DNA from: Octopus vulgaris
Lineage: Eukaryota
DNA: 64,000 bases
Assembly: GCA_951406725.2 (NCBI GenBank)
Contig: OX597817.1
Location: 60,698,001 to 60,762,000 of the forward strand
Reading direction: 5' to 3'
The translations under genes and the position numbers were made by a program. This document shows positions 6,128 through 63,742 of the stretch, one piece after another. Under the pieces are notes generated by a model that was given only the letters and a program-made list of their open reading frames with translations, ran no database searches and had not been told where the DNA came from. Every line of letters starts with the position of its first letter. Position 1 is the stretch's first letter.

Positions 6128-6251
6128 GAGCGTAGGCTCGAAACGTTAAAGACTTGTTTTATTTATATTTCCTGAGCGCCATACTAATACAATTGTTTGT
6201 TTGTATTCCACCTACCTTCGTCTTTTGTCTATTTTTATAAAGCTTCCCGTT
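6128..6251 (+). mobile_element. HHR-like short element family A, 5'-truncated copy in (TA)n
   Basis: Starts at GAGCGTAGGCTCGAAACGTTAAAGAC; homologous to copies at 45921, 46115, 62905 and 63550. Confidence 0.8.
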
Positions 6252-7325
6252 ATATATATATATATATATATATATATATATATATATATATATATATCAT
6301 GGTATGAACCAAGCAACCGGAGAAGACATACACCGCTAGTCACAATGCACTTCGCGTTCTTTTAGCCTTCGATTGATACTATCCCGCTGGCTACACGCGC
6401 ACACACACACATACACACACGCACACAACCACGTCCGGGAAAGACGGTTCTGCAATTTGTTGCTGAGCAATCTGTACAAAGGATTTGTTTATATCAAATC
6501 TGTTTTGTACATTGGCTCACTCTCTCTCTCTCTCTCTATCAAATCGACATTACCTGAACAGGTGTACACCGTCACATGTCGGTCGCAGAGCAAAGTGAGA
6601 CGAAGTTTTATGATGAAGAACACAATGCACCGACCGGTCCAGGAATTGAAACCTTGATCTCAGGATCGTGAGTGCAACGCCCTAATCATTAGCCGATGGA
6701 CTTTTGTCATATATATATATATATATATATATATATATATATATATATATATATATATATATATATGTATACATGCATGCATACATATATATATACACAT
6801 GTATACCTATCTATATATACGTAAATATATGCACGTATATATGTATCTTGTTTCACTTCAATTATTTATTTTCAAAGCTATCATTGCACAACCCTTGACA
6901 CACATAACACGCGTTATCGTCACAAAACCCCACTTCTAATGCGCCATTTCTTTTTCAAAAATCTTTCAATCAAATAAATTCATCGTAAACCCAGATTCAT
7001 AACTCAGTCGTCGCCTGCTAAGTCTGTAGTCCTTGTAGACCTCTTTGGCGTGTTCCCTTGGCAGGATACTTCAGTGTCGCGTGCATCGTATCCTATATCA
7101 AGCATAAGCGATATCGTTGAAATTCATAAGTGACAAGGAATTCCGTAGAAGTTGTTTGGCTAATCCCCCTTACAAGATTTAAATCTGATTTGATTTTAAT
7201 TGAGAGACGGCAATTAGAGCGAAACAAATTACTCTGTTATATTAACGGTGTTGACATCAAGCTCCTGGTTCATTCTTCAATGGCAGCGTGTCAGTTTATG
7301 AATACGAAATGTAATTGACGCATAT

Positions 7326-7463
7326 TCTTGGGGGAGTTGTAGGATTGGTTCTCTGGCACCTCTTACCTAAGGTCCTATCAGGAACAAACATCATTACACT
7401 TTCTGGCTGGATTCATAAGCGAAACCAACTGATGCAACCATCTCATTCTTGATTTAACCCTTA
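7326..7463 (+). mobile_element. Fragment of the same element as 11521-11660 (DIRS-like), opposite orientation
   Basis: Aligns by eye to the reverse complement of 11521-11660. Confidence 0.75.
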
Positions 7464-8599
7464 GTTAAATAGAAAGAAAGATAGATAGATAGAAAGATAG
7501 ATAGATAGAAAGATACACAGAAAGACAAACAGACAGATAGATAAATAGAGAGAGAGAGAGAGAGAGAGAGAGGGAGAGAGAGAGAGAGAGAGAGATAGAT
7601 AGACAGACAGATACACAGAAAGATAGACAGACAGATAGATAGATACTTGCGTGTGTGTAAGCAGTTGATGTTTTTCAAGTTCATTATATAACGTATTGCG
7701 TACTCTTTTCTTTTCATTTAGAGTATCAATGAATGTATGTGTGTGTGTGTTTGTGTTTGTGTGTTTGGTATGTGTAATCGGGTGGGTGGTGATGGTGGCG
7801 GCAAGCGAGCTAGCGAGGGAGAGAGAGCAAAAAGTTATTTTATACGCAGGCATATCCGTATATTATATCTGGGAATCTATCGCTGGTCTCGATTAAGAGG
7901 CTAAATGAACTGATGCATATAACATTAGTCAGTTTAATCGTTTGAACGAAAAAAGAGCCTGACGATGGCGTGGTGTGTTCAGCCTGTAAAATTATGGAAT
8001 ACACTACCTACCAAGTGTACATTTTGCCCGCCCCTTTGATGTACTTGCCTGTCAAGTTATAGTAGTCTCACACACACGCACATATACATATGCATGAATG
8101 TGTGTGTATGCATATATATCTCTATGTATATATATATATATATATATATATATATATATATATATGTGTGTGTGTGTTTATATATATATATATATTTATG
8201 TTTATATATATATATATTTGTATATATTTATATGCAAACACGTGTATATATATACATGTGTTTATATATATATATATACTTATATAGATATGTATATATA
8301 TATATACATATATATATACTTATATATATATATATATACATTATTTATGTATATACTTATACAGACATACATACATATACGCATATTGGTATGTGTACAT
8401 GTACGTATGTTGAAGTATAGGGTTGTGAGAGGTATTAAGTGTTTATGTGACGTAAACACCCCCAGTAAAAACAAATCCAATGTGTGTTCCATGTGCCTGA
8501 TGCGCACCGTTGAAAATGTTCATGCCTTCATAGACAGGGATTTTCCCCCCTCGAAACATATTCATTACTATTTCGAATGTGCTTTGCAGTATTTCATTC

Positions 8600-9140
8600 G
8601 GATCTTTACGTTCCGAGTTCAAATTTTGCCGAGTTCGACATTCATTCTTCCATTCTTCATTTTTTTTGGGAGGTGGTGGGGGGGGTCGATAAAATAAGTA
8701 CAAGTTGAACACTACTGGCAATGTAACAATCTAATCTCGTTCCCTAAATTGCAGGCCTTGTGCCTGTAGTAGCGTTACGTTCTGAGTTCAAATTCCGCCG
8801 AGGTCGACTTTGCCTTTCATCCTTTCGGGGTCGATAAATTAAGTACCAGTTACGCACTGGGGTCGATGCAATCGACTTAATCCGTTTGTCTGTCCTTGTT
8901 TGTCCTCTCTGTGTTTAGCCCCTTGTGGGTAGTAAAGAAATAGGTATTTCGTTTGTCTTTACGTTCTGACTTCAAATTCTGCCGAGGTTGTCTTTGCCTG
9001 GACAAAATGCTTAGAAGTATTTCAATCGTCTTTACGTTCTGAATTCAAATACCGCCAAAGTCGACTTTGCCTTTTATCCATTCGGTCGATAAATTAAGTA
9101 CCAGTGAAATGGCTATCCTTGTGGCAAAATTTTAAACCAT
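8600..9140 (+). mobile_element. Cluster of SINE family 1 pieces (four reiterations of the TTACGTTCTGAGTTCAAAT module)
   Basis: Module starts near 8607, 8775, 8959 and 9032; 8775-8945 is close to the intact 3' half. Confidence 0.8.
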
Positions 9141-9229
9141 TATTATTATTATTATTATTATTATTAAGGCGGCACAATCGTCACCCCACCAAGCGCTGGA
9201 TAGGTTTTCCTACGAGCTTTACTTTCGTT

Positions 9230-9630
9230 TGGTTGTCTCTTATCAAATGTCTACTTCGTCTGGCACCAAAACGAGAGAGTTCCCAATCCTGTGGGCCGTG
9301 ATACTGAAAATGTATCCGAGCAACGAAGATGACTGTGAGGATTCTCGACCCGTGACTCTCTGTTAAGGGCAGAGTTCAAGATTTTGGTCAAGGTGTTAGC
9401 AAAGAGGTTGGCGCTTGTCATCGAGTAGTTTGTCGGTGCTATGTAAATATGTATCATCCCAAACAGATCAAACCCCACCCCATGCGATCTATCATAAAAA
9501 GGGTAATCATAGAATGGCATGAGTGGGGCCTTACGCATTTTAGATCAACGAAATCTTGGCTAGTCTCACAGTCTGGATAGGTGGCGCTGCGAGCGGTTTT
9601 AGGTGTATTTACACCACTTGTCTACAGCGA
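9230..9630 (+). mobile_element. L1/Tx1-type reverse transcriptase relic
   Basis: DSRPVTL / RAEFKILVKVLAKRLALVIE..ICIIPNRS matches the L1-clade RPITLLN.DYKILAK.LA.RL motif; has stops and a frameshift. Confidence 0.75.
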
Positions 9631-62175: not shown

Positions 62176-62850
62176 TATTATATTTAATTAGAGACAAAAC
62201 CACTATTATGCAAATCAAACAAAGAAAGACTTAAGCCAATACATAAATTATTTATATAAATTTAGAAATTTAACAATTATAAATAACCACTACGATCGTT
62301 TCATGTCTTATTTCAGCACATCTTTGAGACATTCTTCAGGTGGTTTAAAGCCTAAAATATAATCAAATTTTTAAGATATAAATAATCTATATAATCTAAA
62401 TAAATAATTACTTATAATAAACTCTATTATTAAATATGATTATATCGAAATCGACTATAATGTTAAATATTAACTTTAATTTATAAGGTAGAAAATCCAT
62501 ATCCTAATATCCATTTTAGTCTATATCTACTTATATAGATATTTGAAATGACTAATATATATAAATTATCAATGAAAATATATATAAATATTATAATCAA
62601 GATCTAAAATAATCTCTATAAACGATTGTATATAATGAAAACCTAATATATTTAATTTCTCATATTTAAAGATGAAATAGCTAATTTCAAAATACAAAAA
62701 ATATATATACACATGCTCATGCTCATATATACATTTATGTATATAAACATATCTAAATACGTACACAAATATAATATTTTACTATAAAATTGGATTCAAT
62801 CCTAAATCTGATTTTTCCCTGTAAATTTGGATTTATTCCCTAATATTTAT
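62176..62850 (-). mobile_element. AT-rich Penelope-like remnant carrying a hammerhead, flanked by (TA)n
   Basis: Contains the HHR at 62285-62345; TA arrays on both sides. Confidence 0.7.
62285..62345 (-). ncRNA. Type I minimal hammerhead ribozyme, canonical core
   Basis: Minus strand AACCAC-CTGAAGA-ATGTCT-(loop)-AGACAT-GAAA-C-GATC-G-TA-GTGGTT: 6-bp stems I and II, palindromic ACGATCGT helix III, GUA site. Confidence 0.88.
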
Positions 62851-62904
62851 TATATATATATATATATATATATATATATATATATATATATATATATATA
62901 TATA

Positions 62905-63090
62905 TTCTGTTTTCAATTTTCTATTTTTGCTATTTTCTATTTTCTCTACCTGTTTCTATTTTCCTTTCTGTCGAAGAGCGTAGGATCGAAACGTTAGAGA
63001 CTTTCTCACTTCCCAAGCGTTAAACTAATACATCTGTTTGTTGTTTACACACCCGTCTTCGTCTTTTGGTTTTTTCTTTTTTGTAAATTC
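62905..63090 (+). mobile_element. HHR-like short element family A
   Basis: CTTT-CTGTCGA-A-GAGC-GTAG-GATC-GAAA-CG-TT-AGAG (62964-62999). Confidence 0.8.
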
Positions 63091-63160
63091 TCTCTCTCTC
63101 TCTCTCTCTCTCTCTCTCTGTATATATATACATATATACATATATATATATATATATATA

Positions 63161-63520
63161 TGCGTGGTGCCTAGGACTCCAAACCTGCCATCAAGATGTA
63201 GGACAAGATACTGTGATAGCCTGGGCTTCCGAGGCCCACAGCTCTTCAATATCCTCCCGAAGAACCTGAGAGACCTGCATGGGGTGGATACAGATGTCTT
63301 TAAAATGAAGCTGGATCTCTTCCTGTCAGGTGTCCCAGATGAACCAACTTCACGGCAGGAGGGGCAGATGAGGGCAGCTGCATCGAACTCTCTCATGCAC
63401 CAAATAGCAGTTGCTAGAAAGCCTCCATGAAGTGAAACCAAGTAGCAACACCAAATGGCGGTGCCCCAGCATGGCCACAGCTCATAAGCTGAAACTAGAA
63501 TCAATCAATCAATCAATCAA
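63161..63520 (+). mobile_element. CR1-group LINE 3' end with (AATC)n tail
   Basis: YCDSLGFRGPQLFNILPKNLRDLHGVDTDVFKMKLDLFLSGVPDEP..RAAASNSL; 3' UTR GGCGGTGCCCCAGCATGGCCACAG. Confidence 0.9.
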
Positions 63521-63549
63521 TCATATATATATATATATATATATATATA

Positions 63550-63742
63550 CGTTTCTTAACTTTTTTGTACTTTCTGCTTTTACACATTCTTTATTGTCTC
63601 CTTGTTTCTTTCTCTGATCCTTTCTGTAGGAGAGCGTAGGCTCGAACGTTAAAGACTTTTTCATTTCCCGAATGTTAAACTAATATATCTGTTTGTTCTC
63701 TACGCCACCTGTCTTCGTCTTTTGCTTTTTGTGAATTTTCCC
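63550..63742 (+). mobile_element. HHR-like short element family A
   Basis: CTTT-CTGTAGG-A-GAGC-GTAG-GCTC-GAA-CGTT-AAAG (63620-63654); core further decayed. Confidence 0.78.

What the first reader, a model, noticed from the sequence alone, without database searches (positions are those of the whole stretch)
6128..63742. Dispersed ~130-200 bp non-coding family with a hammerhead fold but a fixed non-canonical core (A6 to U)
Seen: five copies (6128, 45921, 46115, 62905, 63550), all at TA/TC microsatellites, share CTTT-CTGT(A/C)GA-A-GAGC-GTAG-GCTC-GAAA-CG-T(A/T)-AAAG. This gives stem I, stem II, GAAA, a palindromic ACGT helix III and a GUH site. All four copies that retain the core have U at the normally invariant A6, even though their flanks are clearly diverged. 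The conserved 3' part ends GTCTTCGTCTTTTG...(TA)n. Inference: a non-autonomous, microsatellite-targeted, Penelope-mobilised element that amplified with a variant ribozyme. It could be a new active HHR variant or a catalytically dead fold kept as an RT-recognition signal.
Basis: partly seen in the sequence, partly recalled or inferred. Interest (0 to 1): 0.85.

Follow-up and report, generated by a model that had tools for sequence, protein, structure and literature searches.

The report
Altered-core hammerhead in young Penelope retrotransposon
The five repeats are end pieces of a young Penelope-like jumping gene with intact copies elsewhere in the genome; its small hammerhead RNA motif carries U instead of the normally fixed A in about 16,000 copies, which likely slows self-cutting and offers a natural test of whether these elements need their ribozyme.

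Summary
Observation confirmed; interpretation half right. The five copies are real. Genome-wide, the motif has U at core position 6 in 15,954 exact matches, A in 184 and C/G in 430. It is not a separate non-autonomous family. It is the pseudo-LTR end of a Neptune-type Penelope-like element whose intact copies (ORF 1,059-1,102 aa, 0.5% apart) carry the same U6 motif in both pLTRs. Apart from A6U it matches the published minimal hammerhead of Penelope elements. Related elements elsewhere and older sister lineages here have canonical CUGA, so U6 is derived; a sister lineage separately amplified U4C. Across U6 subfamilies only N7 and H17 changed. Of 83 sampled copies reaching the cut site, 82 run through it, so uncut (or re-ligated) RNA was copied. 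Best reading: a slowed, probably not dead, ribozyme that transposition does not depend on. Cleavage is untested and no raw RNA reads were available. New variant of a known kind; no U6 report found, but one key paper was not held.

The parts
6128..6251 (+). 5'-truncated pLTR end of the youngest subfamily; starts at stem II, core lost; (TA)n on both sides
   Evidence: 96% identical over 129 nt to the 3' end of full-length element L145
45921..46086 (+). pLTR end, CUGUAGAA subfamily
   Evidence: at least 39 other genomic matches 97-99% identical (top 40 scored)
45961..45996 (+). Minimal type I hammerhead motif: stem I 45961-64/45993-96, C3 45965, U6 45968, stem II 45973-84, GAAA 45985-88, CG-U 45989-91, H17 (A) 45992
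   Evidence: sequence; matches the min-HHR consensus of PMC4209133 suppl. Fig. S3 except position 6
46155..46310 (+). Older-subfamily pLTR end; motif 46187-46222, core CUGUCGAA, palindrome damaged (AUGU)
62905..63090 (+). pLTR end; motif 62964-62999, core CUGUCGAA, one stem II mismatch
63550..63745 (+). pLTR end; motif about 63620-63654, U6 present, A9 changed to G and one A of GAAA missing
26765..26975 (-).
   Evidence: stem II at 26892

Best explanation
These repeats are the pseudo-LTR ends of a young Neptune-type Penelope-like retrotransposon, and their minimal hammerhead carries a derived A6U change that likely slows cleavage without abolishing it. Shown: element anatomy (pLTR with motif, ORF with RT, CxxxxCxxC linker and GIY-YIG, pLTR with motif), U6 in intact young copies, (TA)n targets, and read-through of the cut site in integrated copies. 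Inferred: the RNA starts near a TCAGTCGCCATG site about 110 nt 5' of the cut site; the element's protein nicks (TA)n DNA and starts reverse transcription about 105 nt 3' of the cut site, as reported for an anole element. Copying back to the RNA 5' end would give the common 200-bp solo-pLTR copies, and early stops the shorter ones. Cleavage would separate that start site from the rest of the RNA, so slow cutting is tolerated or favoured. The rest of the core is likely kept for a residual, dimer- and protein-assisted reaction. U6 is also predicted to pair with A15.1 and close the monomer into an inactive rod.
For: U6 15,954 vs A6 184 vs C/G 430. 32 of 32 motifs beside young GIY-YIG matches read CTGTTGAA. 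11 of 13 full-length copies (picked for long frames) have intact ORFs, mean distance 0.49%. Outgroups are canonical: 12 of 15 motifs in 80 related metagenome loci are CUGA, 0 are U6, as are older sister lineages. Among subfamily majorities 0 of 34 motif columns other than N7/H17 differ vs 15 of 65 flank columns (p 0.002 at one threshold; 0-1 of 34 at all four); N7 and H17 are the positions free in working hammerheads. 82 of 83 copies reaching the cut site extend past it, and 23 of 98 5' ends cluster at -114 to -102. Literature (passages read): the natural A6C hammerhead has low but detectable activity (PMC3088659), and A6C is rescued by Mn2+ or high Mg2+ (PMC7151607). In the anole element, ribozyme-dead mutants still insert in vitro and cleavage needs the protein (PMC11167929). 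Predicted G5-C15.2 pairing is 0.79 in 98 U6 copies vs 0.13 in 20 A6 copies of the same loop type.
Against: No cleavage was measured and no direct A6U rate was found in the papers read. A mutational scan reports low activity for all CUGA-region changes except the C3-G8 swap (PMC9901934), which fits a dead motif equally well. The flank control is imperfect, because pyrimidine tracts mutate fast. Read-through may be no different for canonical Penelope hammerheads: the anole study found no reads ending at its cut site, and I had no matched canonical sample. Read-through is also expected if cut RNA is re-ligated into circles. The rod prediction does not extend to the U4C sister lineage. Junctions near the cut site (11 of 31 loci) are not clearly above TA microhomology, but a mild excess is not excluded.
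Confidence: 0.5

Rival explanations
1. The motif no longer cuts; it is kept as a structure or sequence that the element's protein or the transcription machinery recognises in the pLTR.
For: CUGA-turn changes give low activity. 82 of 83 integrated copies run through the site. Ribozyme-dead mutants still insert in vitro in the anole element. U6 is predicted to fold the motif into a closed rod. A sister lineage amplified with a different core change, U4C.
Against: The only motif positions that changed between subfamilies are N7 and H17, the pattern of a catalytic hammerhead; G8, G12, GAAA, A15.1-U16.1 and the palindrome stayed. A6C, the known natural change at this position, retains activity.
Confidence: 0.3
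2. U6 is a fully active variant in vivo, rescued by the element's protein, by Mn2+ or by dimer geometry, and it makes unit-length circles that serve as templates.
For: The rest of the core is strictly kept. A6C is nearly wild-type in Mn2+. The anole ribozyme is protein-assisted. Circles would also explain read-through and partial tandems (model in PMC4209133).
Against: No compensating change accompanies U6. Stubs beginning at the cut site are rare (1 of 98). Predicted competing U6-A15.1 pair.
Confidence: 0.12
3. The motif has had no function since a founder copy mutated A6; it looks conserved only because too little time has passed.
For: Within the U6 lineage the stems show no covariation; the copies are young (4-8% from subfamily majorities).
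Against: U6 spans subfamilies whose GIY-YIG pieces are only 73-87% identical to the youngest and whose flanks changed at 10-30 of 65 columns while the motif changed at 0-1 of 34.
Confidence: 0.08

Closest known systems
Minimal hammerheads (min-HHRs) of metazoan Penelope-like elements (Cervera and De la Pena 2014, PMC4209133; main-text parts 1-2 and supplement part 2 read)
   Same: Type I topology, extra nucleotide after A9, G10.1-C11.1, GAAA-CG-UH with palindromic helix III, U-rich 5' flank, position in both pLTRs, many solo copies.
   Different: All sequences in the part of Fig. S3 that I read have A6; the core variant described there is U3-A8. Here position 6 is U with no compensating change.
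Neptune clade of endonuclease-bearing Penelope-like elements (Craig et al. 2021, PMC8557442; passages and supplement part 54 read)
   Same: Single ORF, RT then C-terminal GIY-YIG, CX2-5CxxC linker, microsatellite bias; RT3/RT4 and linker resemble the DreriNep1, XtropNep4 and Neptune-1_Ac rows by eye.
   Different: Hammerhead core is non-canonical. Clade assignment was by motif comparison, not by a tree with reference sequences.
Natural A6C hammerhead of phage Bcep176 (Perreault 2011 PMC3088659, section 8 and passages; PMC7151607, passages)
   Same: Natural substitution at the same core position, uncompensated.
   Different: C rather than U; a single phage motif, not a retroelement lineage with about 16,000 copies; activity measured there, not here.
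Poseidon element of the green anole (Frangieh et al. 2024, PMC11167929; parts 1-2 of 4 read)
   Same: AT-rich targets, reverse transcription starting 3' of the hammerhead, uncut RNA as the dominant template.
   Different: Different clade; its hammerhead overlaps the ORF start and its C3-G8 pair was shown to be functional; here the motif lies about 730 nt before the ORF start.

Membership tests
Penelope-like element, EN+ (Neptune type) | Single ORF with RT and C-terminal GIY-YIG endonuclease | tested here: met
   P0002, 1,071 aa: RVT_1 E 1.8e-7 above cut-off; GIY-YIG E 0.006, below Pfam cut-off but with YCISC..YIGQT motif; ADKG, YIDD, YIGQT in 11 of 13 copies
Penelope-like element, EN+ (Neptune type) | Partial tandem giving pseudo-LTRs, inverted 5' pieces | tested here: met
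   Upstream 3'-end repeats of 630-2,140 bp in 9 of 14 loci aligned; inverted pairs in L044, L058
Penelope-like element, EN+ (Neptune type) | CX2-5CxxC linker between RT and EN | tested here: met
   CSRPRCRTC before the GIY-YIG
Penelope-like element, EN+ (Neptune type) | Groups with Neptune rather than Nematis in an RT tree | tested here: inconclusive
   Only by-eye comparison with published alignment rows; no reference sequences held for a tree
Minimal hammerhead of PLEs | Helix I, helix II with G10.1-C11.1, extra nucleotide after A9, palindromic helix III, NUH | tested here: met
   covariation across families 7 of 8 pairs, 0/500 shuffles (the eight outside rows came from a pairing-based descriptor, so partly circular)
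Minimal hammerhead of PLEs | Core CUGANGA (A6) | tested here: not met
   U6 in 15,954 of 16,568 exact matches; 74 of 78 unbiased copies
Hammerhead ribozyme (catalytic) | Self-cleavage after H17 | not testable with these tools
   Only assembled contigs available; genomic junction test inconclusive
Non-autonomous element / non-LTR retrozyme | No protein-coding capacity in the family; tandem non-coding monomers | tested here: not met
   Same pLTR is attached to intact ORFs; window copies are dispersed single ends

The most novel reading that the evidence does not exclude
Two sister lineages of one Penelope clade each rose to thousands of copies after weakening the CUGA turn in different ways (A6U, U4C) while keeping every other catalytic nucleotide. 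That would mean selection tunes these ribozymes down, or makes them conditional on the element's protein or on Mn2+, so that uncut RNA is integrated and cutting happens only at a later step.
Probability: 0.25. Interest if true: 0.8.

Novelty: new variant of a known kind. Interest (0 to 1): 0.55.

Why it matters
What hammerheads do for Penelope-like elements is an open question. Here a very successful lineage with intact, near-identical copies carries an uncompensated change in the CUGA turn, and natural A6, U6 and C4 forms of otherwise the same motif sit in one genome. That makes a direct comparison of cleavage rate and transposition possible with natural sequences. It also shows that descriptors requiring CUGANGA can miss most motifs of a large family: 4,721 of 32,763 matches in this superfamily are canonical.

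Tried and rejected
Rfam scan: no hammerhead family among the 150 rows shown (174 lower rows not shown); output swamped by microsatellite matches. Folding energy: z from -0.9 to +0.8, no stability signal; not informative for such a motif. Sequencing runs: no listed holder on record as RNA; all were contigs. Laying contigs: no other letter listed at position 6, but the known N7 polymorphism was not listed either, so the control failed and nothing is concluded about other organism labels, expression, ends or circles. Viral contigs: 48 pattern matches, none confirmed. A tight pLTR-5'UTR junction pattern found only 2 loci because I took a rare allele. First subfamily analysis was biased by loci chosen for A6 and by a motif-based filter; redone on the anchor-chosen sample. 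Idea that A6U and U4C converge on the same closed rod: rejected, since the UCC-loop lineage does not form it. Idea that A6 copies are a large hidden canonical subfamily: rejected; most fall inside U6 subfamilies as scattered changes, though one small old cluster (L031-L033, L180, one copy in L319; ORF pieces 65% identical) has A6. Pile-up of 5' ends at the cut site: not shown. Literature searches for a U6 core and supplements of PMC3088659 and PMC8557442 found none. Lunse et al. 2017 (PMC5785218) was not held and could list such a variant; one supplement file of PMC4209133 could not be searched.
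Full report
Observation. The window lies at G000:C4:60,698,001-60,762,000 in a 2.8-Gb genome. The five copies are present, with no chance matches in 100 shuffles, and align over 130-200 bp. Four reach core position 6 and all have U. The copy at 6128 begins at stem II. The third copy starts near 46155 rather than 46115, belongs to an older subfamily than its neighbour, and has lost the ACGU palindrome, so the proposed natural dimer is not supported.

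How fixed is U6? With the rest of the motif held exact, the genome has 15,954 matches with U6, 184 with A6 and 430 with C or G (87 C and 13 G in the first 100). To avoid choosing on the motif, I took the first 100 matches to a 3' anchor (23,454 in all), dropped two internal duplicates and read the rest. Of 98 copies, 78 reach stem I: 74 U, 2 A, 2 gaps at position 6; N7 is T 33, A 24, C 13, G 6; H17 is A 61, T 14. These 100 all come from the first 11 Mb of C1. Most A6 copies sit inside U6 subfamilies as scattered changes. One small old cluster has A6 and may be ancestral or a reversion.

What the family is. Copies with long 5' extensions run through a C/A-rich UTR into a GIY-YIG frame. A search with that frame returned 150 scored matches at 99-100% identity with open frames up to 1,214 codons; all 32 motifs in the 30 loci returned read CTGTTGAA. 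Full-length copies, for example L145, have the layout pLTR with motif, about 730 nt, ORF of 1,071 aa, UTR, pLTR with motif, (TA)n. [quoted passage not shown] Of 13 copies picked for long frames, 11 are intact; mean pairwise distance is 0.49%, so the element moved very recently (inference). RT3, RT4 and the linker resemble the Neptune rows in the supplement of PMC8557442 by eye. The window copies are therefore ends of an autonomous element, and the 6128 copy is 96% identical to the youngest subfamily.

The motif. It matches the published min-HHR consensus (CUGANGAH, G10.1-C11.1, GAAAN-palindrome-NUH; PMC4209133) except at position 6. In 80 metagenome loci encoding relatives 35-67% identical, a descriptor allowing one core mismatch found 15 motifs in 12 loci: 12 CUGA, 2 CCGA, 1 UUGA, none U6; shuffles gave 0.2 per replicate. 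I did not verify that each motif belongs to the matched ORF. In this genome the superfamily sharing stem II has 32,763 matches, of which 4,721 are canonical, mostly sister lineages with 3-nt loops. U6 is therefore derived. One large subfamily of the UCC-loop sister has 6,482 matches, 90 of the first 100 with U4C; the 10 with U4 are on a par with CpG decay in its loop (12 of 100). Stems covary across families (7 of 8 pairs, 0/500 shuffles; partly circular), and the outer stem I pair is C-G in the U6 lineage and G-C in the sisters. Within the U6 lineage stems are invariant, so there is no covariation there.

Constraint after the change. Clustering the unbiased copies on flanks only, subfamily majorities differ at N7 and H17 but at 0 of the 34 other motif columns, against 10 of 65 and 15 of 65 flank columns at the two tighter thresholds (p 0.014, 0.002). 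At the two looser thresholds the single differing column is position 6 itself, from the old A6 cluster. Flanks are slippage-prone pyrimidine tracts, so the contrast is suggestive rather than exact.

Was the RNA cut? Element 3' ends lie about 105 nt beyond the cut site, so each insertion that spans the site was copied from uncut or re-ligated RNA. Of 98 copies, 83 reach the site and 82 pass it; 23 have 5' ends at -114 to -102, at TCAGTCGCCATG or ATCGCCATG (ends approximate). The first resembles an initiator (recalled motif), so I infer a transcription start. Among 31 distinct (TA)n junctions inside the motif, 11 are within about 2 nt of the cut, where the A-run offers several microhomology registers, and 5 are at the single TA in loop II; no clear pile-up. 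This agrees with the anole element, where reverse transcription starts internally, uncut RNA is the main template and ribozyme mutants still insert (PMC11167929). It does not show that U6 differs from canonical motifs in this respect. Public runs were contigs only and gave nothing usable.

Expected effect of U6. I found no measured A6U rate. A6C disrupts one or two hydrogen bonds and gives low but detectable cleavage (PMC3088659); it is strongly impaired in low Mg2+ but rescued by Mn2+ or 10 mM Mg2+ (PMC7151607). A full scan reports low activity for CUGA-region changes (PMC9901934). ViennaRNA predicts that U6 lets U4-G5-U6 pair with A15.1-C15.2-G16.2, hiding the palindrome (G5-C15.2 probability 0.79 in 98 U6 copies, 0.13 in 20 A6 copies of the same loop type); the U4C lineage does not share this fold.

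Verdict. That this is the pLTR hammerhead of a Neptune-type Penelope element is close to certain. It works like a min-HHR in layout but fails the CUGA membership feature. I put 0.5 on a slowed ribozyme, 0.3 on a dead fold kept for recognition, 0.12 on a fully active variant and 0.08 on a functionless relic. Eight paper searches found no U6 core; Lunse et al. 2017 could not be read. Earlier notes of this scan list other core variants in Penelope hammerheads but none with U6 among the 8 shown of 13.

Noticed in passing
window 62285-62345, minus strand: A canonical minimal hammerhead (CUGAAGA, 6-bp stem I, CGAUCG palindrome) of a different repeat, followed by an AT-rich tail and (TA)n; a local canonical control.
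   Followed up: no
window 26765-26975 and about 16710-16810, minus strand: Two ends of the UCC-loop sister lineage; the first carries a U4C core, the second is truncated 3' of the motif.
   Followed up: partly
L145 about 3021-3038 and equivalent place in sampled copies: At the 5'-end cluster a four-codon open frame (GCC ATG, three codons, then TAG/TAA/TGA) recurs across subfamilies despite changed codons; many UCC-loop copies begin at AAATGTGACC, an ATG-TGA. Possible regulatory uORF.
   Followed up: partly
L070, L157-L160 (e.g. G000:C1:150,947,263): A second young linker-bearing Penelope family, 27% identical to P0002, with open frames up to 869 aa; no hammerhead was found at its 3' end by my descriptor.
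   Followed up: partly
L231 and L295 (metagenome contigs); L077 about 2460; L070 minus about 8460: CCGA (U4C) cores recur in distant relatives and in single copies of other families here; may be a commonly tolerated change in Penelope hammerheads.
   Followed up: no
L031-L033, L180, one copy in L319: Small old subfamily with CUGAUGAA and the GUAG loop, ORF pieces 65% identical to the young element; candidate for the state before A6U.
   Followed up: partly
protein hits P0025-P0122: Many relatives are about 900 aa on contigs of only about 3 kb from public assemblies, close to one element length.
   Followed up: no
window 63140-63500: Non-microsatellite stretch between the last two copies that looks like the tail of another retroelement (recalled resemblance only).
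   Followed up: no
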